Sequence record: PV636258.1
DNA from: a phage
DNA length: 64,000 nt
Reading direction: 5' to 3' (one strand)
The translations under genes were made by a program, and so were the position numbers. Below are positions 19,806 to 50,415 of the stretch, in pieces; positions within the stretch are counted from its first letter, which is position 1; every line of letters begins with the position of its first letter. The notes below the pieces were generated by a model. That model ran no database searches and had not been told where the DNA came from. It saw only the letters and a program-made list of their open reading frames with translations.

Positions 19806-20921
19806 TTATGCATCCAATGTGTTCAGGCGTTGTTGGGCAGCATTATAAAATTGTTCTGCAAGTTTGCAAACATTTTCAGGGCGCTGGATATTGTTGGCTG
19901 CGCGGATATCATTTTTCAAGACTTCCACCGCATCAGTAGCCACCATCTCTTCAGTGACTTCTACCTTCTCGGAAGCAACAGTAATCGTCCGATCGATGAA
20001 GTTGTAATCGATGCATTTACAGCGCTTCAATGCGTCACAGAACTTTTCATAATGCTTGGCATTGTCACGGTTCTGTACAATCACCTTAACGATTTGCCCT
20101 TCAATACCCAAAACATTGTTTAACCAATCGGGGTCGATCCAATTACCTTCAGTATCAGAAGACATTTGTGTGTAGTCGTATTCCACGAACCGGAACAACG
20201 TTTGTTGTTCGTTGTTGGGGATAAACAATTCCCCGCCATTCATGTCGTCTACATAGAATCCTCGGTTCGTCCCGTCTTTGTGGTCTTCCCAGGTAAGGTG
20301 ATAAGGAGTCCCAATATACTGAATGTTACCTTCCATCGAACGGGTATGGAAATGTCCGGTATCCACGCGCTCGAATTTCGAAAGGAGCGCCAAGTCGATC
20401 TGACCTTTATCACATACAGAGGACTGGTACATTTTGAACCCTGCCAACTCCAGATGCGCAAAACAGTACTTGGCGTCTGTATCTTGTATCGCTTTAATGG
20501 ACGCATCATAGTTCTCTTTGTTAATCCACGGCAGTAGGAGGGTCTTGACACCTTCAATCATTACTTCAGTTGGTTCACTGTAATAATGATAAACATCTGG
20601 TGCCAATTCATTAAGATAAGAAGGCCAGTTAATGCGATTGGACTCTTCTAACGTGATATCATGGTTGCCGACGATGCCATTCCATTTAATACCTGCTTTG
20701 CGCAGCGCTGGCGTCAATTCATCTTTCAACCAATCTTTATCGCGACCATACATGAATTTGCGAACATCAAACGTATCACCAAATTGCCACACTTCTTTAA
20801 TATCGGCGTCAACCAATTCTGGAATAAAATAATTGATGAGATAATTCTTTATGAATTCTCGAACGTAACGGGAACCATTACGGCTCCCGATATGTAAATC
20901 ACCAATTTTAGCAATCGCCAT
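19806..20921 (-). CDS. 47: recombination endonuclease subunit, Mre11/SbcD-like (T4 gp47-like)
   Basis: calcineurin-like phosphoesterase motifs (GDLH, GDTFD, GNHD, GHFH) colinear with T4 gp47. Confidence 0.9.
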   Translation of the reverse strand: MAIAKIGDLHIGSRNGSRYVREFIKNYLINYFIPELVDADIKEVWQFGDTFDVRKFMYGRDKDWLKDELTPALRKAGIKWNGIVGNHDITLEESNRINWPSYLNELAPDVYHYYSEPTEVMIEGVKTLLLPWINKENYDASIKAIQDTDAKYCFAHLELAGFKMYQSSVCDKGQIDLALLSKFERVDTGHFHTRSMEGNIQYIGTPYHLTWEDHKDGTNRGFYVDDMNGGELFIPNNEQQTLFRFVEYDYTQMSSDTEGNWIDPDWLNNVLGIEGQIVKVIVQNRDNAKHYEKFCDALKRCKCIDYNFIDRTITVASEKVEVTEEMVATDAVEVLKNDIRAANNIQRPENVCKLAEQFYNAAQQRLNTLDA

Positions 20922-21699
20922 TATTTTGTTGCTCCCGTTCTAATGCTCGTTTCTTTGCTTCTTCCCAATCTGGTTCCATAGAACATATTTCGTCTTCCAG
21001 ATTGAATTGAGTAGAGCCGAAGTCATAGTCTGAATTATCTTCGGCGTCGGCGGTAATGGTATTTTCACTCTTTGTGAGACATTGAAGTATACCGCGTGGA
21101 ATTTTCTTATTCTTTTCCTCTTCTTTGATGGCGATTTGCTTTTGGCGTTCCTTTTCGCGCTGGGCTTCTTTCTTAGTTTCAAAATTTCCGATACGCTCAC
21201 GAAAGTCCATTGTTATACCAGTGCTGTCTACGAACGTCTGTTGCTGGAAGTCTGGGTCATCTGATAATGCAGCGAAACCACCTGCTTCTTCAAATGAACG
21301 CAACTTGATATAATTGTGTTCTTCTTCACTGGTGAGTTTCTTGGCGAATGAACGGTCGGCGCACATCGTTACCCAAGAGAAGAAATTGATTTTTCCTTTC
21401 TTGCCGATATGACTGACGTCAAATGTATGGAGGTAACGAAGAATGTTAACAACGGCCTCACTGACCATGTCTTCGCGGTATGGATAATCACGATAGTTGT
21501 AGCGCATACTCATGTTCTTAATAATCATCTGAACATTCATGGCCACATAATTGGGGATTCTTGGTAGGGGTGTTCCTTCGGCCAAAGCCTTTTTGCGAGC
21601 CGGAATCCAATCTCTCAATATTCCAACAACACGGTCATTATCTTCGTCTGTGAAATATTTGGTGACGTTATCACCCCTGTCTACAAAATTCATACCCAT
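20908..21699 (-). CDS. 55: late-transcription sigma factor gp55-like, with C-terminal acidic extension
   Basis: central region resembles T4 gp55 (LHTFD...FFSWVTMCADRSF); start set at ATG 21699 with GAGGA SD (track start is TTG). Confidence 0.65.
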   Translation of the reverse strand: MGMNFVDRGDNVTKYFTDEDNDRVVGILRDWIPARKKALAEGTPLPRIPNYVAMNVQMIIKNMSMRYNYRDYPYREDMVSEAVVNILRYLHTFDVSHIGKKGKINFFSWVTMCADRSFAKKLTSEEEHNYIKLRSFEEAGGFAALSDDPDFQQQTFVDSTGITMDFRERIGNFETKKEAQREKERQKQIAIKEEEKNKKIPRGILQCLTKSENTITADAEDNSDYDFGSTQFNLEDEICSMEPDWEEAKKRALEREQQNNGDC

Positions 21700-21710
21700 C
21701 GTGATAATCC

Positions 21711-22238
21711 TCAAATACCAATGAATTCATTGAAAGAACCAACGACTTTCTTGACCGAGAAACGGTTATTTTCAAGAACCATTGAACTATCTTCTTTGGC
21801 TCTAACGCTCCACTGATCCGCAATTTCGTTGCCCATCGTTCCTGCATGACCTTTCACCCATTTTAATTCAAGTTCACAAATTGAACAAACTTTGTCATAA
21901 TAATCGAACAACTCGAGCAGAAGTTCTGTGTTCTTAGGCGGCATTCCTTCATATTCCCATTTACGACGCCACTCCAAAACGCTATTGATAACATATTGGC
22001 TGTCGGATATGATGCGGGCTGGGGGAATGCAGCGTTTACCGCAATTAGAGAATTTCCATAGGATCTTCATTGCGTTTATAACCCCGAGTAACTCAGCTAT
22101 ATTGTTCGTTGACGGCGGGGGTAAATACCCATAAAACACTTTCCATTGCTCTCCAGTGATTGGACTGATGGCAAATGCCCAACCAGCGGCTCGTGTCTTC
22201 TGAGGGGACGATGCCCCGTCAGTGTATATTTCAATCAT
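21711..22238 (-). CDS. ribonuclease HI (RnhA-type)
   Basis: IEIYTDGAS, NNIAEL, DSQYV, W.KGHAGTMGNEIAD catalytic motifs; ATG 22238 chosen over TTG 22253. Confidence 0.85.
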   Translation of the reverse strand: MIEIYTDGASSPQKTRAAGWAFAISPITGEQWKVFYGYLPPPSTNNIAELLGVINAMKILWKFSNCGKRCIPPARIISDSQYVINSVLEWRRKWEYEGMPPKNTELLLELFDYYDKVCSICELELKWVKGHAGTMGNEIADQWSVRAKEDSSMVLENNRFSVKKVVGSFNEFIGI

Positions 22239-22280
22239 GTATAAGTATCCCAAACTGGTTTTATCGATGAGGAACGAATC

Positions 22281-23048
22281 ATGTCAGAACGCGCATATCG
22301 TTTCAGTCTGACCGCCCCAGAAATTGAGCGTTTGCTCTTGTCTATAAATGATTCCATACAAAAGCTGGACATCATTTATGACTACACGGCGGGTGGGACT
22401 GAAGGTCAAGTCGCAGCTGCGTCAGCTGTCAAAAACATGTGGCTAAAACTTAATGAGATGGTCACAGGTGAAGGTCTTAAAGACGCAATCAATGCAGCTA
22501 ACGACAGCAACGTATTCACCGATTATTATAAGTCTATTTTAGATCGCGAAACCTGGAAATTTATTGGTTCTCCGGCAGATTTATTAGCAAGGGACGATAT
22601 AGACACTTCCAATTTTGAAGGCGGTGAAGTAATCCTCCTACAAAAGAACGCTTCGGGCAACCCAGAATTCCAATACTGGAAAAGAACTCCTGTGGCAGGA
22701 GGTGATCCAATATTTGGTTGGGGATCTGTTTATGAAGGAAACTCCAACGACTCTTCTATTGATATTCCGGTTGTTGGGACCAGCATACTGAAGACCATCC
22801 CAAAAGCATTGTTTCATATGGTCGAATTCCGAGTACATGCTCGAGAGTCTACCCTCGGTCATTGGCAGGACACTGATGGCAAAATCGGTTATCGTGGTGA
22901 AGATCTGATTTATAGCCTGTATAATCATGTTCAAACCAAACCGATCGCAAATATATCTTTCAGCCAAGATGTGGACAATATGATTATCACGATAACGACA
23001 CTTGAACCAAATATCAAGTGCCATTTATCGTTTATTGCGGGTTATTAA
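22281..23048 (+). CDS. hypothetical protein (255 aa) on opposite strand
   Basis: ATG 22281 with GAGGA SD 8 nt upstream; fills a gap with no convincing minus-strand gene; convergent overlap with helicase stop. Confidence 0.5.
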   Translation: MSERAYRFSLTAPEIERLLLSINDSIQKLDIIYDYTAGGTEGQVAAASAVKNMWLKLNEMVTGEGLKDAINAANDSNVFTDYYKSILDRETWKFIGSPADLLARDDIDTSNFEGGEVILLQKNASGNPEFQYWKRTPVAGGDPIFGWGSVYEGNSNDSSIDIPVVGTSILKTIPKALFHMVEFRVHARESTLGHWQDTDGKIGYRGEDLIYSLYNHVQTKPIANISFSQDVDNMIITITTLEPNIKCHLSFIAGY

Positions 23049-24766
23049 ACCTCAAACACTGCATCGGTGAACCAGGTTGGGAAGAATTCTGGGTTGCGCA
23101 TCATAAGAGATTCAAAGGATGAATCAATGATGTATGTCGCAGCCCAGTCATCAACACCCCTGACCGAACGCCCACACATTTGAACAATGCGCAGTACTGC
23201 ATTGCGGAAATATGCCGACGGATCCACTGAATTGATATGTGCTATCAGTGGATCGCCCAGATAATCATAAGGGACTTTGATCAGTATTTGGAAACGGCTG
23301 TAATCCCCTTTGAAATCATAACCTTCTTCCATAGCCGGACTGGCAATGACGCATGGGGACTTTGTTCTAAAAGCATTTTCCATAATATCCATCAACGCCT
23401 TTCGGGTGCGCGGAACATGGATAAAATTCTGATATTTACTGAATTTTTGTATTGCCAAGGCGCGATCATAACTCACTGTATGGATAATGCCGGACTGACC
23501 TGGGTGGAACGCGATTATTTCATCAATATATTCCGTCAACCTTTTCATTTCATAGTCGCCCATATTGTTAGTCATCTTCACTATGGGCATATAGTTGACT
23601 TTTCTGTTTTCAATTGGGATAGGGTTGCCGATCTGAATGGAATGATAATCCCCCTGTCGAATACCCAATGAACGAGCATAAGAATCTATGCCGCAGATCG
23701 TTGCTGACATATGAACGTGATAATCGGCTTTTCGGAATAACCCGAATTCACTTACATCAGAAGGCATAACAGGTTTAAACCGAATAAAATCTTCCCCCTT
23801 TTCTTGCACAATAAATGTACTTGCTTGGGTTTGTGACATAATACCGCAATAATCACTCAAGTTGTGCAAGACATCTATAATGTCTGCGAGTTTCATCACT
23901 TGGCTTTCACTCAAGCGATCATCTTCGACCAATTCTTCAAGGACTTCCAACAAATTTTCTACTTTGAGATGGAGGTCTTCAAACATTGAATGTAGTTCAC
24001 CAGACAAAGAATATAACTTGCCCAGGACATAGTCCTTGGTACGTTCTACGATATCACCAATGGTAGAGACGATCTCCTTGCCCTCAGGGATAGAACGCAG
24101 CCCCTCCACGGCCTTTGTATTGTATTCCATGATCGTGTGCTCTAGGAGCGTAGAGGGCATTTTATGGCACTCGTCAAGAATCAGCATATCGGAACGGTTT
24201 TCGGGCTTCATGCAGATGGTTGTACACATTTCGATCATCATGGCAGCATTAGTACAACGCAATGATGAAATATCCGTCCACAAATTACGCGCCTGTACAT
24301 AAGGACAGCGGCGTTTGCTACAATGCCCGTCACGGCATGCTATACGGCATTGGACAGCATTGTAATACACATCTGGATGTACGTGGCAACGATAATTCTT
24401 CTTGCCTTTTAGGATATCGATTGATACTGCTTTTTCAGCAGCATACTGATCTTGCAGACCTTTGGTCGGGGTGCTGATAGAAGTGCGAAATTGCCCATAA
24501 GGATCAGCCTGTAAAACTAGATGGCGAATCACTTTATGAATGGTAGTTCCAATCAAAGATTTACCGACGCCTGTCGGAGCTTCAATGATGACATGTTTAA
24601 CCTTTTTGTTGATAAGCGCATCTATGGCTTCGATGATGCATTCCATCTGGCCTGGGTTCGCTTTGTCATATGGGAATTCATCTTTGGCAAGGCGTTGTAT
24701 TTCTTCCATAGGAACCTTACGGCCTATGGCGTCAATCGCCTTTCGGTGTTGATTAAATGCTGTCAC
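23045..24766 (-). CDS. DinG/XPD (Rad3)-family Fe-S helicase-like protein
   Basis: Walker A APTGVGKS, DECH box, four-Cys cluster region CHVHPD...CRIACRDGHC...CPY between them; GTG start 24766 with AAGGAGG SD. Confidence 0.75.
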   Translation of the reverse strand: MTAFNQHRKAIDAIGRKVPMEEIQRLAKDEFPYDKANPGQMECIIEAIDALINKKVKHVIIEAPTGVGKSLIGTTIHKVIRHLVLQADPYGQFRTSISTPTKGLQDQYAAEKAVSIDILKGKKNYRCHVHPDVYYNAVQCRIACRDGHCSKRRCPYVQARNLWTDISSLRCTNAAMMIEMCTTICMKPENRSDMLILDECHKMPSTLLEHTIMEYNTKAVEGLRSIPEGKEIVSTIGDIVERTKDYVLGKLYSLSGELHSMFEDLHLKVENLLEVLEELVEDDRLSESQVMKLADIIDVLHNLSDYCGIMSQTQASTFIVQEKGEDFIRFKPVMPSDVSEFGLFRKADYHVHMSATICGIDSYARSLGIRQGDYHSIQIGNPIPIENRKVNYMPIVKMTNNMGDYEMKRLTEYIDEIIAFHPGQSGIIHTVSYDRALAIQKFSKYQNFIHVPRTRKALMDIMENAFRTKSPCVIASPAMEEGYDFKGDYSRFQILIKVPYDYLGDPLIAHINSVDPSAYFRNAVLRIVQMCGRSVRGVDDWAATYIIDSSFESLMMRNPEFFPTWFTDAVFEV

Positions 24767-24815: not shown

Positions 24816-24850
24816 AAAAAGCCGAGGCATTAACCTCGGCTTTCTCTTTT
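24816..24850 (-). terminator. bidirectional rho-independent terminator
   Basis: hairpin gccgagg/cctcggc flanked by A-run and T-run. Confidence 0.6.
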
Positions 24851-25263: not shown

Positions 25264-26055
25264 TTATTTGCCGACGTTCAGAATTTTACCTGAGCCGGAT
25301 CCGTCAACGATCAGAGTACATTTCCCGCTGTTGGCGCAAGATTGCAACACCATGTTATATTCGTGTTGTAAATATTCAGATGTCAGAGATGTCGTCAGTT
25401 TCTGATTCGCCTTGGCTTCTTGGTCGCGAATTTCAACGTTCTTTCTTGCTGTATCCAAACGTTTGTCAGCCATGACATTATCACGGATAGATTGCTCAAT
25501 CGAAGGATCTGTCAGCGCCTTTTTCACCAACACGCGTGTGATTGTGAACATGCCAGGCGCAGCAGTTTCCAATTGCTGCTGGGTGCGTTCCTTGATCATC
25601 TTTTCTAACTCAGCCCGTTGGGTGTGAATTGTCATAGAATCCAAAGAAGAAACGGCGTCCATCGTTGAGGATGCTGCGGCGGTTTTAACCAGGTTGAATC
25701 CCACCGCTATCGTGCCGTCACCGAGTTCAGCGCTCTGACCTGCAAATTTGGTATGGAACCAAGGAACCTTCGCGACGTTCGGTGTGTAATAAACGTCCAC
25801 ATCCAGATCTTCCAAGGTCAGGTTGTCTTTGGCCTTTGGCGTCATTTTCGTCAGACTCACGACGGCTTCTTTAGTCGTATAGACATCTACACTTGAAACG
25901 AAACTGGTGTAGATACCTGCGGTTACAGGGTTCATGTCCACTTCACCCCATTGGGTTCGAACACCGACGTTTCCTTCATCGATAACACCGCCGCAGCCTG
26001 AAAGAAGGCTTGTTGCTAGGACCATAATTGCGCCAAATACCAGTTTCTTGAACAT
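25264..26055 (-). CDS. SPFH (band-7/stomatin-prohibitin)-domain lipoprotein
   Basis: lipobox LLSGC after hydrophobic leader; SPFH-like core (EGNVGV...TKEAV...KDNLTLEDLDVDVYYT); AAGGAG SD; ATGA-coupled to upstream small membrane ORF. Confidence 0.65.
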   Translation of the reverse strand: MFKKLVFGAIMVLATSLLSGCGGVIDEGNVGVRTQWGEVDMNPVTAGIYTSFVSSVDVYTTKEAVVSLTKMTPKAKDNLTLEDLDVDVYYTPNVAKVPWFHTKFAGQSAELGDGTIAVGFNLVKTAAASSTMDAVSSLDSMTIHTQRAELEKMIKERTQQQLETAAPGMFTITRVLVKKALTDPSIEQSIRDNVMADKRLDTARKNVEIRDQEAKANQKLTTSLTSEYLQHEYNMVLQSCANSGKCTLIVDGSGSGKILNVGK

Positions 26056-26264
26056 CAATGTACTCCTTCAAAAATGTAAATATAAGCACCCAATGTGAGT
26101 GCAGTTATTGTAACCGAAGAAATCAGCAGTAGGAAAGTTACTCTCACCCGTTTGCGCCAACGTTTACTTCGGTAGATTTTAGTCTCTTTCAAGTATTTGA
26201 AAAAGAAAAATAAAATGAATGTTGAAATTACGAATATGAACAGATAACGGATTAACCCGATCAT
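26055..26264 (-). CDS. small two-helix membrane protein (69 aa)
   Basis: two hydrophobic segments separated by a basic loop (RSKRWRKRVR); translationally coupled to SPFH gene. Confidence 0.5.
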   Translation of the reverse strand: MIGLIRYLFIFVISTFILFFFFKYLKETKIYRSKRWRKRVRVTFLLLISSVTITALTLGAYIYIFEGVH

Positions 26265-26581
26265 ATTTCCCACCCTGTGCTACGCAGATGATCAAAATAA
26301 TCGTTGAGTTCGTCAATATCTTCGATATCAACCCAACGATCATCCAGTCCCATATCATTTAGATCTTCTTCAGTCAGATCATGTTGATAAATCTGAATGC
26401 CCGAAGCATTACAATAATCCGGCTTGATATTGTTGTTGAACTGGAACAAATCATAATCAGCCAGAGTATTCTTCAGGCGCTGCGCTTCTTCAAATGTTGG
26501 AACCTCAACATGAAAAGCGATCCCAGGAACCTGGGGAATATGCCAAACACGAAATTTAAGTTCAAATGGTTTATTCGACAT
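26261..26581 (-). CDS. hypothetical acidic protein (106 aa)
   Basis: ATG 26581. Confidence 0.5.
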   Translation of the reverse strand: MSNKPFELKFRVWHIPQVPGIAFHVEVPTFEEAQRLKNTLADYDLFQFNNNIKPDYCNASGIQIYQHDLTEEDLNDMGLDDRWVDIEDIDELNDYFDHLRSTGWEI

Positions 26582-44382: not shown

Positions 44383-44748
44383 ATGAAGCAATTTGTTGGT
44401 TTATACGCAGTAGGGGAAGACCAAGAAGCAATTCTTTCCATATCAGAACAACGTTCGTCATTAAAAGGCGTTTATTTACAAAGCCTTTTCTGTACATCGG
44501 GGTTTGTTGTGACACCGATGATGGTGATACCATTACTCCCAAATAACAAAGGTCTGTATGTTGGTATTATTCAACAAGGCCAGGCGCGGGAAGTGAAAGT
44601 TGTTCCATTGCTGGCATCTAATGAAGAATTGTTTTCTCAGATTCTTGAGCCGAAAGTGCTACAACAATGTATTGGCACGATCGACTGTTTATTTGGTTCC
44701 AACAAAGAAGGCGAGGCAACCCCCGCCTATGTGAACCAAGATCTTTGA
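44383..44748 (+). CDS. hypothetical protein (121 aa) on opposite strand
   Basis: only long ORF in the AT-rich divergent region; weak SD. Confidence 0.3.
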   Translation: MKQFVGLYAVGEDQEAILSISEQRSSLKGVYLQSLFCTSGFVVTPMMVIPLLPNNKGLYVGIIQQGQAREVKVVPLLASNEELFSQILEPKVLQQCIGTIDCLFGSNKEGEATPAYVNQDL

Positions 44749-44753
44749 AATAG

Positions 44754-46253
44754 TTAGAGCGCCACTTTTTTCATTTTAACAGGGTGGCGCTCCATAAGAT
44801 AAAATTTATATCTCTCATGAGAATGCCTGAGAGCATGGTTGTAGGAACCGTTGTAGCGCAGGTTGTCTACCAGGTCCCAGATTCGCGCAACATCCTTAGA
44901 GGAATGCTGACGCATCAAACGCCCCAATGTCTGTATAACACGGATATAAGATTTGCTGGGATGGGCCAATATCAGATGATGGAGTTTTTTGATAGATACG
45001 CCCTGTTGCATAGTACCATATGATGCTAACAGTGTTATATCTTCCCCTTCTTCCATAGCAGCCTGAATCTGTTTACGAACTTCTGTCTTGACTTCCCCGT
45101 TGATGACGAATACGTTTTTCTTGACTGCCGATAGCATTTCATAAACCAACATCATGTGTGCATCGATACGTTCGAACATTACTGCGACGTTCCCTTTCAA
45201 AGATAGAGCCATTCGGGCTATCAATTCATTGCGGCGTTCGTTAGCAATGAGGAATTCTATTTCCTTTTGATACTCAGCACCGTGCATTTCAATACAGTCT
45301 GCCATAGGATGTATGACTTCAATCATATTAACATTGATGTCCGCCGCATATCCTAGATCGATTAAATCGCGCGCTGTAATAATTTTATGATATGCACCAA
45401 AGTGAGCAACGACTTGTAACCCTGCGACCTTTGTATTCGCCAGGGTTCCGGTTACTCCCAAACGTTGATCAGCGTTAATACAGTTGTTCAAGATGTAAGA
45501 CAATTTATCTGATTTTGATGTATGTACTTCGTCGACGACGATATCTCCAAATTGATGGAACCACTCTTTGGGTTGGTTCTGGATACCTTGCCAAGTTGAA
45601 ATAACTATGGGTTTGAAAATCTCTTTCGTTGCCCCTTCGTATATTGTCTGGACGTTCATCAATGGCTTCCATTCTGTCCCGTGGCTATATTCTTCGAAGT
45701 TGTCATACAACTGAGTCACCAAATGAATGGATGGTACAACGATTAACGTTCTCAGATTACTTTCGAGGGCATCTCTGCGTTGCCTGTAGTAACGAGCCAT
45801 GATGTACAAAATAAAGGATTTGCCGGCACTCGTGGCAGCTTCGAGGACACATCTGCTTTGGCGTATTGCTGTGGAAACAGAATCAAATTGATAATCGCGG
45901 ACAATCGCTTTTTGATATTGTTTGTTTTCGTCTCGGTACACCGCATTCAATGTATCGATGAACGCATGAATTTCTTCATCCGGAATATCTTGAATATATT
46001 TTAAGGCCGGATCTAATTTGATGGTGTAACCGTTCATCTTACAGAATTTGAACACCTCAAATAACAGGCCGATGTCGATAAGCCCAGAACTCTTTGTGAA
46101 CAGCCGCACTACGCCGTCCCATTTACTGAACGGATTCGGTTGGAAATTAGGATCTTCAAATTTGAAGTAATCGTTGAGTTCTTCACGGATATAATCCTCG
46201 GCGAGGATCCGCATTCTAACTTCGTTCACTTTGACTATTTGGATCTCAGACAT
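44754..46253 (-). CDS. uvsW: UvsW-like DNA/RNA helicase
   Basis: colinear with T4 UvsW (TSAGKS, DEVH, SGEV..E.R, LHHLILAH, QTLGR); CTAAATAC box 26 nt upstream of ATG 46253. Confidence 0.9.
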   Translation of the reverse strand: MSEIQIVKVNEVRMRILAEDYIREELNDYFKFEDPNFQPNPFSKWDGVVRLFTKSSGLIDIGLLFEVFKFCKMNGYTIKLDPALKYIQDIPDEEIHAFIDTLNAVYRDENKQYQKAIVRDYQFDSVSTAIRQSRCVLEAATSAGKSFILYIMARYYRQRRDALESNLRTLIVVPSIHLVTQLYDNFEEYSHGTEWKPLMNVQTIYEGATKEIFKPIVISTWQGIQNQPKEWFHQFGDIVVDEVHTSKSDKLSYILNNCINADQRLGVTGTLANTKVAGLQVVAHFGAYHKIITARDLIDLGYAADINVNMIEVIHPMADCIEMHGAEYQKEIEFLIANERRNELIARMALSLKGNVAVMFERIDAHMMLVYEMLSAVKKNVFVINGEVKTEVRKQIQAAMEEGEDITLLASYGTMQQGVSIKKLHHLILAHPSKSYIRVIQTLGRLMRQHSSKDVARIWDLVDNLRYNGSYNHALRHSHERYKFYLMERHPVKMKKVAL

Positions 46254-47522: not shown

Positions 47523-48020
47523 TTATTGTTTATCAATTTCGCGGGTGACGCGAGTCGGAGTCAGTTTCAAATATTTGAACGTGACAGTCGTGACCAGTTG
47601 GGGAACCGCAGCATCCACATCCACCAATACGTTATCCAAAGCTGTGGGACGGGCTTCTTCCAACAACAATTGTAGACCAACAGGTCGATTCATGTTATCA
47701 AGAAGGTCGATGGTGATGTCGCGGCTGACAGCTAAATCAGATCCAGCATTAGACGCAATCCAATTGTAAATCTGTTCCCAGTTGTACCAACTCTCATCGA
47801 TAACGAACGTAAATACGATGGGGTCATACGTGAGACGTTCTGAAGGTATGGAGTTGAGCACATCGCCAGGGGATGGTCCCTCGATACCTTCAGAATACAC
47901 TCCAGGAATACTGAAGTCATGTATTGAACGAGTAAGCAATATCAGGTCTCCGATAGTTAAGCGCCATTTATCGGAAGCCGCGAAATTAGGATTTTCGTTT
48001 TTGAATTGTACACCTGTCAT
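47523..48020 (-). CDS. tail-tube-family protein (gp19 paralogue; possibly tail tube terminator)
   Basis: pattern shared with the window's gp19 (DKWRLT vs QHRWRVT; PIVFTFV vs LPVTFINV; DLLDN vs ELLDAN). Confidence 0.45.
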   Translation of the reverse strand: MTGVQFKNENPNFAASDKWRLTIGDLILLTRSIHDFSIPGVYSEGIEGPSPGDVLNSIPSERLTYDPIVFTFVIDESWYNWEQIYNWIASNAGSDLAVSRDITIDLLDNMNRPVGLQLLLEEARPTALDNVLVDVDAAVPQLVTTVTFKYLKLTPTRVTREIDKQ

Positions 48021-48083: not shown

Positions 48084-48704
48084 ATGACGATGATAATGGT
48101 GCTTGCACTCACAAGTTGCCGTATCTTTGTCACGTCCGTCATTTCTGTAACCGACCTCTGGGATCCTGAAATCAGAACCATACCTGTTAACATCTCAGCC
48201 GACATTGATAAATGCAATAAAAATATTCTGAATCAAGTAGTATCTGATTTTCAGAACTTCCAGACTCTTCAAGCTGTTGGTTGTTTTGATGATAACAACC
48301 AGTCACTGAGACCATACTGGAAAACCACGATTCCCCTATTGAGGAAAGGTGACGAAGGAAAGATCCCATATCTATCCGCAAGTATTTATTACTCTCAGAA
48401 TAATAGCATCATAGCGACTTTCAATCCTTCTTTCTTTGACAAACTTAGAAGGAATACTCAAGCAAGGGACGTAGAAATCACCAGAGACGTTGCAATATCA
48501 TTTCAGATAGTTAATAACACCAAATCTCCGATCCGAATTGCCACTCAGGGTGTTTTCGTTAATGGATCTGCTGTGGGTAATGAAATGAACATCTATGAAA
48601 TAAGACCAGGCGGTAAAGTATGGATTCGAATGAGTGATGTTGGGGTGAACTCCCTGGTGATGGAAGGTATCGAACCAGTGGGAGTTCTCCCCGCTAGACA
48701 TTGA
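48084..48704 (+). CDS. putative lipoprotein (206 aa) on opposite strand
   Basis: MTMIMVLALTSC lipobox-type signal peptide; divergent from 47523..48020; abuts stop of 48705..49433. Confidence 0.4.
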   Translation: MTMIMVLALTSCRIFVTSVISVTDLWDPEIRTIPVNISADIDKCNKNILNQVVSDFQNFQTLQAVGCFDDNNQSLRPYWKTTIPLLRKGDEGKIPYLSASIYYSQNNSIIATFNPSFFDKLRRNTQARDVEITRDVAISFQIVNNTKSPIRIATQGVFVNGSAVGNEMNIYEIRPGGKVWIRMSDVGVNSLVMEGIEPVGVLPARH

Positions 48705-49433
48705 TTATTTCAGGGACTCTTTTAATTCTGGAGTCCCTATTTTATCAATAACGCCTCCAGCACAGAGATCTTTGGCCCATTCTCCAAGAACATTCGCAAA
48801 AGAGAAGTTTAGACATTCTTTGATCATACTTTCAATATGAGCAAGTTCTGCAGCTATCCCATCGGTGATATCGTTTATAACTCCATTGACGGCGGTTATT
48901 GCCTCATTGATATGTCCTGTTACTTCAGCAGCCAATTGCTGTAGTTTTGCCATACCTTCTGAGGCACCTTCCATAATCATGTCATACAATTCCGATATCT
49001 TGTTAGTCACAGTCTGGAGAGCGCCTTCCATAGCGTTTAACCATTGGCGGCCTAGATCCTGAACAACACCGAATGCTTTGTTGATCAGGTCACAATTGTT
49101 TGGTTCCCGTGATATACTTTTCAAACCTGATTTATATGAAACGGAAGTCCCAATTCTTGAATACGCTTCATTTATGCTCTGGTCGCCATATGTGTTCAGT
49201 GTCGTTATCCCCGTGTTGGCAGAGCTATACATGTTTGTGGCTGCTGTAAGTTTATCTGGTGTTAATCCACCTGCTGACATAGCCAACTGCATTTCCGGAG
49301 TCGCGTTGGCAGTTATCAATGGTATATTGGTACTACCACTGGTGATTAAATCCTGTGAGGGACCGGAGAGGGACGGAAGCGGGTTGCTAAATGCGTTACC
49401 AGAGGAAAGGACATCGTAGATTTGTGCGTTCAT
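48705..49433 (-). CDS. hypothetical protein (242 aa), late gene
   Basis: ATG 49433 preceded by TATAAATACCCCC embedded in 26-nt palindrome. Confidence 0.6.
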   Translation of the reverse strand: MNAQIYDVLSSGNAFSNPLPSLSGPSQDLITSGSTNIPLITANATPEMQLAMSAGGLTPDKLTAATNMYSSANTGITTLNTYGDQSINEAYSRIGTSVSYKSGLKSISREPNNCDLINKAFGVVQDLGRQWLNAMEGALQTVTNKISELYDMIMEGASEGMAKLQQLAAEVTGHINEAITAVNGVINDITDGIAAELAHIESMIKECLNFSFANVLGEWAKDLCAGGVIDKIGTPELKESLK

Positions 49434-49455: not shown

Positions 49456-49463
49456 TATTTATA
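49456..49463 (-). promoter_or_regulatory. T4-type late promoter box TATAAATA within perfect palindrome 49435..49460
   Basis: minus strand TATAAATACCCCCAAAATTGGGGGTATTT, 22 nt upstream of ATG 49433. Confidence 0.5.
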
Positions 49464-49666: not shown

Positions 49667-49674
49667 TATTTATA
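49667..49674 (-). promoter_or_regulatory. late promoter box TATAAATA
   Basis: exact T4 late consensus on minus strand upstream of small membrane ORF. Confidence 0.45.
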
Positions 49675-50092
49675 ACAATCGTTTGGTTTTGGGTTTGCCC
49701 ATGAGAGTGATATTGACATTGACTCCTGCTTTTTTCATGCGGGTAATCATGTCTTGCGTCCCAGTAGACGAACCATCCCATAACGCAATTCCAAAGACCT
49801 CAAGACCTTTTTGTTTGGCCAGGGTTGTAGCTTTGTCTAACATATCTTTGTTACGTTGGTTTCCTGCGCCTTTCCCATATATCGTGTGATAATCCTTAGG
49901 GATCCCCATTGGCGTAACATGGACATAATTGATTTCACACCAATCACGAGATATCAAGTCCACACCAACCGCTTCACCTTCTATAAAAGTTTCGATCTCG
50001 TGGGGATCTAACAGTTCATCCAGTTTGGCGAAGATTTTATCCCGCTCGGTTATTGAGCGGGAACCTGTAATGAGCACGACATATTTCTTCAT
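49670..50092 (-). CDS. SLOG/DprA-like (DUF2493-type) protein
   Basis: YVVLITGSR and WDGSSTGT motifs. Confidence 0.45.
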   Translation of the reverse strand: MKKYVVLITGSRSITERDKIFAKLDELLDPHEIETFIEGEAVGVDLISRDWCEINYVHVTPMGIPKDYHTIYGKGAGNQRNKDMLDKATTLAKQKGLEVFGIALWDGSSTGTQDMITRMKKAGVNVNITLMGKPKTKRLL

Positions 50093-50097
50093 AGAAC

Positions 50098-50415
50098 TCA
50101 CAGCGCCCCAAGATTGCCGATGACATAAAGGGAGCACAGGGGAGTCCCTGACGAGCGGGGTTCGATTGTCATCCCACTCAGGCGGATCAGTTCCAGCAAG
50201 CCGTCGGTGGTCTGATACGCACGAGTCGAACCGTTTGGACGATATAGCTCCAACTCGGTTCGCCCTTCCTTTAATGCGTTACGGATGCGTGTGAATACGC
50301 TGTGGGCTTGATATTTTTGACGTAGAATATCTAAACGGGTGATGAGATTTCGACTGCGGCTGCGACGCCCCTTTGAAGAAACAACTAATTTCATTTCTGG
50401 TGTTTTACAAGCCAT
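50098..50415 (-). CDS. hypothetical basic protein (105 aa)
   Basis: ATG 50415. Confidence 0.5.
   Translation of the reverse strand: MACKTPEMKLVVSSKGRRSRSRNLITRLDILRQKYQAHSVFTRIRNALKEGRTELELYRPNGSTRAYQTTDGLLELIRLSGMTIEPRSSGTPLCSLYVIGNLGAL

What the first reader, a model, noticed from the sequence alone, without database searches (positions are those of the whole stretch)
22281..23048. Opposite-strand 255-aa gene wedged between RNase H and the DinG-like helicase
This is one of only three plus-strand candidates in the window (with 44383..44748 and 48084..48704). It has a good SD and fills a 790-bp stretch lacking a convincing minus-strand gene. Opposite-strand islands in T4-like genomes often encode immunity or exclusion functions.
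Basis: seen in the sequence. Interest (0 to 1): 0.5.

Follow-up and report, generated by a model that had tools for sequence, protein, structure and literature searches.

The report
Phage gp9-like baseplate protein gene
The plus-strand ORF is a real, conserved gene of a Kuttervirus (Ackermannviridae) phage whose product is a virion protein, most likely a diverged relative of the T4 baseplate "socket" protein gp9 and not an immunity or exclusion factor; this is useful annotation but not a new kind of system.

Summary
The window is a Kuttervirus genome (99.8% identical to Salmonella phage Chennai). ORF 22281..23048 (+), 255 aa, is a real gene. It matches phrog_3833 end to end (E 1e-164) and occurs in 358 phage records. 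Substitutions pile up at third codon positions of the plus frame (44/22/130). The rival minus-strand ORF is broken by stops in relatives.

Its orthologues were found by mass spectrometry in purified virions of LIMEstone1 (ORF93: 8 peptides, 41% coverage) and Sajous1 (gp203: 39 spectra).

A T4-type late-promoter motif sits 34-41 nt upstream. It is TATAAGTA here and TATAAATA in three other genera.

In one distant relative the gene lies between a baseplate wedge gene and a tail-fibre gene.

Best reading: a late-expressed, probably trimeric adaptor at the baseplate periphery. The immunity/exclusion idea is not supported. This is a new, diverged member of a known kind, of modest interest.

The parts
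22240..22247 (+). T4-type late-promoter-like box TATAAGTA, 34-41 nt upstream of the ATG, inside the 42-bp divergent intergenic region shared with RNase H
   Evidence: It is the only TATAAGTA in the window. The same position reads TATAAATA in Agtrevirus, Limestonevirus and Miltonvirus, and TAAATA / TAAGTA in Vibrio relatives. The LIMEstone1 record annotates a 'putative late promoter' at the equivalent place. A single one-mismatch match is not above chance: 49 were found in the window against 52 expected. Function is therefore inferred.
22269..22273 (+). Shine-Dalgarno GAGGA, 7 nt before the start codon
   Evidence: Read directly from the sequence. GAGGA is conserved in the orthologous loci, or AGAGG in some.
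22281..23048 (+). Coding sequence of the 255-aa protein (28.4 kDa, pI 4.8), stop codon included
   Evidence: Orthologues were detected by MS in virions: LIMEstone1 ORF93 and Sajous1 gp203.
22281..22550 (+). N-terminal helical region (aa 1-90; helices 12-21, 47-61, 63-72, 81-88)
   Evidence: AF2 model m48a03645ae92. Together with the middle domain this is the best-conserved part of the family: 29-31% identity in distant members against 16% for the C-terminal domain.
22464..22544 (+). Single copy of a phage tail-fibre repeat motif (aa 62-88, GEGLKDAINAANDSNVFTDYYKSILDR)
   Evidence: The family profile matches tandem repeats ('DAEIRxAVEAATDSNVFTDADHSKLNAIE') in long proteins. Those proteins fall in tail-fibre PHROGs, and the repeat also occurs in the solved fibre gp28 of cyanophage P-SCSP1u, 8i4m_e.
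22551..22745 (+). Middle beta domain (aa 91-155), containing RDDIDTS (aa 104-110)
   Evidence: AF2 strands 94-96, 117-120, 129-136 and 144-149. RDDIDTS aligns with RHDIDTS of T4 gp9 (residues 84-90). This is collinear with the C-terminal match but not significant on its own, E 0.16.
22746..23045 (+). C-terminal beta-sandwich domain (aa 156-255), homologous to the C-terminal domain of T4 gp9 (Pfam PF23618)
   Evidence: pLDDT above 90. hhalign of the family against the gp9 family gives 93.5%, E 2.3e-7 for the full profile and 97.1%, E 6.5e-11 for the domain alone. hmmsearch of the family profile against the PDB finds only gp9 at a significant level, E 1.6e-5. Five of 58 members weakly hit PF23618.
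23045..23048 (.). TTAA in which the stop codons of the plus gene and of the convergent helicase gene overlap, leaving no intergenic space
   Evidence: The same overlap appears in the Chennai, kage, Agtrevirus and LIMEstone1 annotations.
24818..24843 (.). Hairpin AAAGCCGAGGCATTAACCTCGGCTTT, the first terminator-like site downstream on the plus strand and possibly bidirectional. If it is used, the late transcript would run antisense through the whole helicase gene.
   Evidence: Pattern scan only. Terminator-like sites are not enriched over shuffles. Speculative.

Best explanation
The gene encodes a late-expressed virion structural protein of the Kuttervirus. It is a diverged relative of the T4 baseplate protein gp9, the trimeric 'socket' that joins fibres to the baseplate.

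Proposed mechanism, with the status of each step:
1. Late in infection, RNA polymerase carrying the phage gp55-type sigma factor starts at the TATAAGTA box and transcribes the gene against the flow of the surrounding replication genes. The sigma factor is encoded two genes away at 20908..21699. This step is inferred from the motif and its conservation.
2. The 28-kDa acidic soluble protein is built into the particle. This is shown by mass spectrometry in two relatives.
3. It has three parts, as gp9 does: a helical N-terminal part carrying one tail-fibre-type repeat, a middle beta domain, and a C-terminal beta sandwich. The fold is predicted. Homology to gp9 is shown for the C-terminal domain only.
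4. [quoted passage not shown] The more variable C-terminal domain would bind a trimeric partner coaxially, such as the tailspike complex or the uncharacterised 'prongs'. Location, oligomeric state and partner are all inferred.
For: Real gene.

Virion protein:
- LIMEstone1 ORF93 (28.32 kDa) gave 40.78% coverage and 8 unique peptides. Contaminating non-structural proteins in the same study gave less than 5% (PMC3296691). ORF93 is the syntenic orthologue.
- Sajous1 gp203 gave 39 spectra from CsCl-purified virions (PMC10892097). gp203 is the orthologue.

Late-promoter motif conserved across genera.

Similarity to gp9:
- Foldseek against the PDB ranks T4 gp9 (1qex) first, E 2.7e-8.
- hhalign gives 93.5% / E 2.3e-7 for the whole profile and 97.1% / E 6.5e-11 for the C-terminal domain.
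- The family profile finds only gp9 in the PDB at a significant level.
- PF23618 is the only Pfam family hit by more than one member.

Fibre association:
- The tail-fibre repeat motif.
- In a metagenomic contig the family member P0054 lies between a baseplate wedge gene (phrog_219, E 1e-90) and a tail-fibre gene (phrog_4492, E 3e-33).
- Member P0085 is followed 12 nt later by a gene with a tail-fibre-type N-terminus.

Conservation pattern: the N-terminal and middle parts are conserved and the C-terminal domain is variable, which fits an adaptor.

Role of gp9 in T4: its N-terminal domain binds gp7 and the long fibres attach coaxially to its C-terminal domain (PMC3004832).
Against: - The window protein itself reaches no Pfam threshold.
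- The N-terminal and middle parts show no significant sequence similarity to gp9.
- Whole-chain TM-scores are low (0.35) and rmsd values are high. The match is therefore domain by domain, with different domain orientations.
- The first structural model was poor in its N-terminal half.
- The gene is not in a baseplate gene cluster in Ackermannviridae.
- A 2024 review states that Ackermannviridae lack the gp9-gp11 periphery (PMC11721090).
- These phages have no T4-type long tail fibres. The TSP4 tailspike is itself gp10-like and may bind the wedge directly (PMC8825819).
- No data place the protein in the baseplate rather than the neck or head.
- The promoter is a one-mismatch motif, and such matches occur at chance frequency in the window.
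- No transcript data were found.
Confidence: 0.6

Rival explanations
1. The protein is a virion component but not a baseplate socket. It could be a short stand-alone fibre or lectin-like decoration, on the head, neck or tail, whose variable C-terminal beta sandwich contacts the host surface or another virion part.
Against: The top structural and profile matches are specifically gp9, not receptor-binding tips. In one relative the gene lies between a wedge gene and a fibre gene, the place of a connector. At 255 aa with a single repeat it is too short to form a long fibre.
Confidence: 0.25
2. It is an immunity or superinfection-exclusion protein, or another host-directed protein, encoded on an opposite-strand island.
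For: Opposite-strand placement among early and middle genes. No experimental function has been reported for this gene.
Against: No transmembrane segment or signal-like region. No defence-family match. Abundant in purified virions. Late-promoter motif upstream. gp9-like fold. The arrangement is conserved across the family down to 26% identity, unlike mobile accessory genes.
Confidence: 0.03
3. It is a non-structural late protein, for example an assembly chaperone for fibres or tailspikes, that co-purifies with particles.
For: MS of purified phage also picks up some non-structural proteins. Adjacency to fibre genes would also suit a chaperone.
Against: Coverage and spectral counts are in the range of genuine tail and neck proteins, not contaminants: 41% coverage against less than 5%, and 39 spectra against 33 for a neck protein. 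The homology is to a structural protein.
Confidence: 0.08
4. The real gene is the minus-strand 128-aa ORF 22638..23024, and the plus ORF is fortuitous.
For: None beyond the existence of the ORF.
Against: The codon-position substitution pattern fits the plus frame. The minus ORF has internal stops and loses its start codon in relatives. It has no family hits. Peptides of the plus-strand product were observed.
Confidence: 0.01

Closest known systems
Bacteriophage T4 gp9 (baseplate wedge tail-fibre connector; PDB 1QEX/1S2E; Pfam PF07880 + PF23618)
   Same: Similar size (255 aa against 288 aa). Same three-part plan: helical N-terminus, middle beta domain, C-terminal beta sandwich. The C-terminal domain is homologous at profile level. 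It is the top structural match in two programs. It is a virion protein and probably a late gene.
   Different: The N-terminal and middle parts show no significant sequence similarity. PF07880 is not matched. The N-terminus carries a tail-fibre repeat motif that gp9 lacks. The gene sits alone, on the opposite strand among replication genes, not between genes 8 and 10. The phage has tailspikes and no long tail fibres, so the partner must differ.
N-terminal particle-binding modules of podophage tailspikes and fibres (Klebsiella phage Kp9 gp42 7XY1; Acinetobacter phage Fri1 gp49 6C72; vB_ApiP_P1 6E1R; APK09 gp48; AM24) and the XD1 domain of CBA120 TSP4
   Different: Those modules are the N-terminal parts of long enzymes. 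Here the module is a free-standing 255-aa protein with no catalytic body.
PHROG families phrog_3833 and phrog_25346
   Same: The protein is a full-length member of phrog_3833 (E 1.3e-164). Its N-terminal half matches phrog_25346.
   Different: Both PHROGs are listed as 'unknown function'. GenBank records variously call the gene hypothetical, putative or virion structural protein, and once 'baseplate wedge protein'.

Membership tests
T4 gp9 family (baseplate tail-fibre connector) | C-terminal domain of type PF23618 (T4_gp9_10_C) | tested here: met
   The window protein alone does not hit Pfam. The family profile aligns residues 158-252 to gp9 residues 177-280: hhalign 93.5%, E 2.3e-7, and for the domain alone 97.1%, E 6.5e-11. 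hmmsearch against the PDB gives gp9 at E 1.6e-5 as the only significant hit. Five of 58 members weakly hit PF23618.
T4 gp9 family (baseplate tail-fibre connector) | N-terminal and middle region of type PF07880 (T4_gp9_10_N) | tested here: not met
   No Pfam hit for any of the 58 members. hhalign of residues 1-157 against the gp9 family gives E 0.099. Only the short motif RDDIDTS/RHDIDTS lines up. Structural alignments do extend beyond the C-terminal domain, with 158 residues aligned.
T4 gp9 family (baseplate tail-fibre connector) | Three-domain architecture (helical N-terminus, beta middle domain, beta-sandwich C-terminus) with gp9 as nearest solved fold | tested here: met
T4 gp9 family (baseplate tail-fibre connector) | Homotrimer | not testable with these tools
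   Only monomer prediction was available.
T4 gp9 family (baseplate tail-fibre connector) | Component of the virion, located at the baseplate periphery | tested here: inconclusive
   Virion presence is shown by MS for the orthologues LIMEstone1 ORF93 and Sajous1 gp203. Location within the particle is unknown. Gene neighbourhoods in two distant relatives point to the baseplate or fibres.
T4 gp9 family (baseplate tail-fibre connector) | Binds a trimeric fibre coaxially and relays the signal for sheath contraction | not testable with these tools
   This needs structural or genetic experiments. The role in T4 is taken from PMC3004832.
T4 gp9 family (baseplate tail-fibre connector) | Gene lies in the baseplate wedge cluster (between genes 8 and 10 in T4) | tested here: not met
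   In all Ackermannviridae examined it lies between RNase H and a helicase or after a topoisomerase gene. One distant metagenomic member does lie between a wedge gene and a fibre gene.
T4-type late genes | TATAAATA box a short distance upstream of the gene, recognised by gp55-RNA polymerase | tested here: inconclusive
   TATAAGTA at 22240-22247 has one mismatch. The exact consensus sits at the same position in three other genera. A gp55 homologue is encoded at 20908..21699. One-mismatch matches occur at chance frequency. No transcript data exist.
Phage immunity / superinfection-exclusion proteins (e.g. T4 Imm, Sp) | Small membrane or periplasmic protein expressed early, absent from virions | tested here: not met
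   No hydrophobic segment. Found in virions. Late-type promoter motif upstream. No PADLOC hit.

The most novel reading that the evidence does not exclude
Reviews state that Ackermannviridae lack the gp9-gp11 baseplate periphery. On this reading they do keep a gp9-derived socket protein, encoded away from the tail genes. It would be the missing link that anchors the branched tailspike complex (the TSP4 anchor domain) or the unexplained 'prongs' to the wedge, and that relays receptor binding to sheath contraction.
Probability: 0.25. Interest if true: 0.5.

Novelty: new member of a known kind. Interest (0 to 1): 0.3.

Why it matters
Ackermannviridae (ViI, CBA120, Det7, LIMEstone and relatives) are widely used biocontrol and model phages. 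Their branched tailspike complex is well studied, but its docking site on the baseplate is unknown. Reviews state that the gp9-gp11 periphery is missing. Recognising this conserved, MS-confirmed virion protein as gp9-like gives a concrete candidate for that docking site. It also replaces 'hypothetical protein' in several hundred genome records with a testable annotation. It is not a new kind of biology.

Tried and rejected
- **Minus-strand 128-aa ORF.** Rejected on codon-position substitutions and on stops in relatives.
- **Immunity, exclusion or defence role.** No PADLOC hit. The only NCBIfam hit was noise, Cap12 at 13.8 bits against a cut-off of 450. There is no hydrophobic segment.
- **Direct family and structure look-ups with the single sequence.** Pfam gave nothing and the PDB sequence search gave nothing at E 10 or below. 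A profile of distant members was needed.
- **Shallow alignment.** The first AF2 run, on 29 close homologues, gave a poor N-terminal half, pLDDT 64.6. hhalign with that alignment missed gp9, probability 0.6%. Adding 47 distant members from the representative search fixed both.
- **Homology of the N-terminal and middle parts to gp9.** Not significant.
- **Late promoter as a statistical signal within the window.** One-mismatch TATAAATA matches are at chance level, 49 against 52 expected. They also precede the primase and NrdA genes. Only cross-genus conservation supports the site.
- **Literature.** I found no transcriptome for a Kuttervirus. No paper called this gene gp9-like. The ViI proteome paper is not held. 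The phiD3 proteome paper did not list the gene.
- **Conserved partner gene next to it.** Neighbours differ between lineages: a homing endonuclease, unrelated ORFs, or fibre genes in only two cases.

Full report
**What the window is.** The 6 kb around the finding is 99.8% identical to Salmonella phage Chennai, a Kuttervirus of the family Ackermannviridae. The window corresponds to Chennai positions 85267-149266. The neighbours are the gp46/gp47 recombination nuclease, the gp55-type late sigma factor, an RNase H of the host RnhA type (21711..22238, -), a DinG/Rad3-type helicase (23045..24766, -), an HU-like DNA-binding protein and an SPFH lipoprotein.

**Checking the observation.** The ORF is exactly as described: ATG at 22281, TAA ending at 23048, 255 aa, with GAGGA 7 nt upstream. 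The Chennai record annotates the same CDS (C149).
- The protein matches phrog_3833 over the full profile, E 1.3e-164.
- It occurs in 358 phage records.
- About 59 clusters at 50% identity exist in a 1.8-billion-protein library, nearly all 245-260 aa long.

Compared with Agtrevirus, LIMEstone1 and Serratia phage 3M orthologues, substitutions by plus-frame codon position are 44/22/130, 41/23/129 and 88/48/153. The minus-strand 128-aa ORF acquires internal stops and loses its start codon in those phages.

**It is a virion protein.** The LIMEstone1 record labels the syntenic orthologue ORF093 'unknown structural protein; confirmed structural protein' and marks a putative late promoter just upstream. 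The LIMEstone1 paper lists ORF93 at 28.32 kDa with 40.78% coverage and 8 unique peptides. The non-structural proteins it regarded as carried along had less than 5% coverage. The paper adds that all twelve unknown structural proteins have structural counterparts in ViI (PMC3296691). In the Kuttervirus Sajous1, gp203 gave 39 spectra from CsCl-purified virions, comparable to a neck protein at 33 (PMC10892097). I confirmed that gp203 is the orthologue, lying between RNase H (gp204) and the helicase (gp202). The window protein has a calculated mass of 28.4 kDa and pI of 4.8, and no hydrophobic segment.

**Expression signals.** The divergent intergenic region is only 42 bp. It holds TATAAGTA at 22240-22247, the only such octamer in the window. 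At the same position Agtrevirus and Limestonevirus have TATAAATA, Miltonvirus has TATAAATA, and two Vibrio Ackermannviridae have TAAATA and TAAGTA. TATAAATA is the T4 late-promoter consensus (established knowledge), and the phage encodes a gp55 homologue two genes away. The motif alone is weak evidence. One-mismatch matches occur at chance frequency, 49 against 52 expected, and some precede the primase and NrdA genes. The late-promoter assignment is therefore an inference from conservation and from the protein's structural role.

The stop codon overlaps that of the convergent helicase gene in a TTAA at 23045-23048. The first terminator-like hairpin on the plus strand is at 24818-24843. A late transcript may thus run antisense through the helicase gene, but this is speculative.

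The arrangement RNase H (-) | gene (+) | helicase (-) persists in Vibrio members of the family at 26-35% protein identity and in metagenomic relatives. It is an old, fixed arrangement and not a mobile island.

**What the protein is.** Single-sequence searches of Pfam and the PDB found nothing. A first AlphaFold model, built from 29 close homologues, was confident only for residues 160-255. A second model, built from a 58-sequence alignment that included distant members, reached pLDDT 87.5. It shows helices at 12-21, 47-61, 63-72 and 81-88, a small beta domain at about 94-149, and a beta sandwich at 158-254.

Structural comparisons:
- Foldseek against the PDB ranks T4 gp9 (1qex) first, E 2.7e-8, and a Klebsiella phage gp9 second.

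Sequence profiles agree:
- The family profile against a T4 gp9 family profile gives 93.5% probability, E 2.3e-7, aligning residues 158-252 with gp9 residues 177-280.
- The C-terminal domain alone gives 97.1%, E 6.5e-11.
- hmmsearch of the family profile against all PDB sequences returns gp9 as the only significant hit, E 1.6e-5.
- PF23618 (T4_gp9_10_C) is the only Pfam family touched by more than one member, 5 of 58.
- Pairwise BLASTP already gave a collinear weak match, E 0.013.

The N-terminal and middle parts show no significant similarity to gp9. The conserved RDDIDTS (aa 104-110) does line up with gp9's conserved RHDIDTS, in the right order. Residues 62-88 are instead a single copy of a repeat ('...DSNVFTDxxKxKL...') that occurs in tandem in proteins of tail-fibre PHROGs and in the solved fibre of cyanophage P-SCSP1u.

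**Context in distant relatives.** Most members sit alone among replication genes of large T4-like or Ackermannviridae-like genomes. Two short metagenomic contigs are informative. Member P0054 lies between a baseplate wedge gene (phrog_219, E 1e-90) and a co-directional tail-fibre gene (phrog_4492, E 3e-33). Member P0085 is followed 12 nt later by a gene with a typical tail-fibre N-terminus. Within the family the N-terminal and middle parts are better conserved than the C-terminal domain: 29-31% against 16% identity in distant members, and 71-72% against 58% in close ones. That is the pattern expected of an adaptor whose one end binds a conserved scaffold and whose other end follows a changing partner.

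**How it most likely works.** In T4, gp9 is a trimer present at 18 copies. Its N-terminal domain binds gp7, and the long tail fibres attach coaxially to its C-terminal domain. It swivels with the fibre and takes part in unlocking the baseplate (PMC3004832). By analogy I propose that this protein is a trimeric adaptor at the baseplate periphery. What is shown: the gene is real, the protein is in virions, and the C-terminal domain is homologous to that of gp9. What is predicted: the three-domain fold. What is inferred: late transcription, trimer formation, baseplate location and fibre or tailspike binding.

The partner is unknown. The baseplate receptor of the TSP4 anchor domain has not been identified (PMC8825819). 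The composition of the 'prongs' is also unknown (PMC11721090). TSP4 is itself gp10-like and may bind the wedge directly, so the link to the tailspike complex is only one possibility.

**Comparison with what is known, and novelty.** The gene is already annotated in hundreds of genomes. Most call it hypothetical, some 'putative/virion structural protein', and one 'baseplate wedge protein'. Both PHROG families are listed as unknown function. A 2024 review says Ackermannviridae lack gp9-gp11. I found no paper assigning a gp9-like protein to them. The result is therefore a refined annotation: a diverged, free-standing gp9-like protein encoded outside the tail module. It fails the PF07880 (N-terminal region) and gene-position criteria of the gp9 family and meets the C-terminal-domain and fold criteria. 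I file it as a new, diverged member of a known kind and not as a strict gp9 orthologue.

**Verdict.** The immunity/exclusion interpretation is not supported. Interest is modest, 0.3. It would rise if the protein proves to be the docking site of the tailspike complex.

Noticed in passing
window 48705..49433 (-) and 49670..50137 (-): Two adjacent minus-strand ORFs match different parts of one PHROG (phrog_289, 'GTP-binding domain'): profile positions 3-146 and 259-500. They are separated by about 240 bp. The window's only two exact TATAAATA boxes lie here, one inside the gap (49456-49463) and one at its upstream edge overlapping the stop of the upstream ORF (49667-49674), both on the minus strand. 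This could be a split gene, an intervening element, or two genes with an internal late promoter.
   Followed up: no
window 44383..44748 (+) and 48090..48704 (+): These are the other two plus-strand genes. Both are real conserved families of unknown function: phrog_4255 (E 4e-62) and phrog_3832 (E 2e-109). Like the gene studied here, 44383..44748 ends head-on against a helicase gene, the UvsW-type 44754..46253 (-). 48090..48704 lies next to a gene that the Chennai record annotates as a tail completion protein and that matches the PHROG 'tail tube' family phrog_45 (47523..48020, -). No TATAAATA-like box lies just upstream of either.
   Followed up: partly
window 22236..22253: The ORF finder extends RNase H to a TTG at 22253, while all records start it at the ATG at 22238. 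The extension would overlap the late-promoter box of the divergent gene. With the ATG start, the RNase H ribosome-binding region and the TATAAGTA box share the same 42 bp.
   Followed up: partly
window 24818..24843: A perfect 10-bp-stem hairpin flanked by A-run and T-run (AAAGCCGAGG-CATTAA-CCTCGGCTTT) lies between the HU-like gene and the helicase gene. It looks like a bidirectional intrinsic terminator.
   Followed up: no
window 26261..26581 (-): The Chennai, kage and Sajous1 records annotate a 'superinfection exclusion protein' here, on the minus strand.
   Followed up: no
window 25264..26055 (-): This gene encodes an SPFH/band-7 lipoprotein. The Sajous1 orthologue (gp200) was detected at low level, 3 spectra, in purified virions.
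   Followed up: no
L004 (Salmonella phage SeF6a) 1703..2425: This otherwise 99%-identical phage carries an extra 723-bp gene annotated 'NAD synthetase' between the late sigma factor gene and RNase H. The window lacks it. It is an indel polymorphism next to the locus.
   Followed up: no
L016 8754..9470 (-): In one metagenomic relative an HNH homing endonuclease gene is inserted convergently right after the gp9-like gene, between it and the helicase.
   Followed up: no
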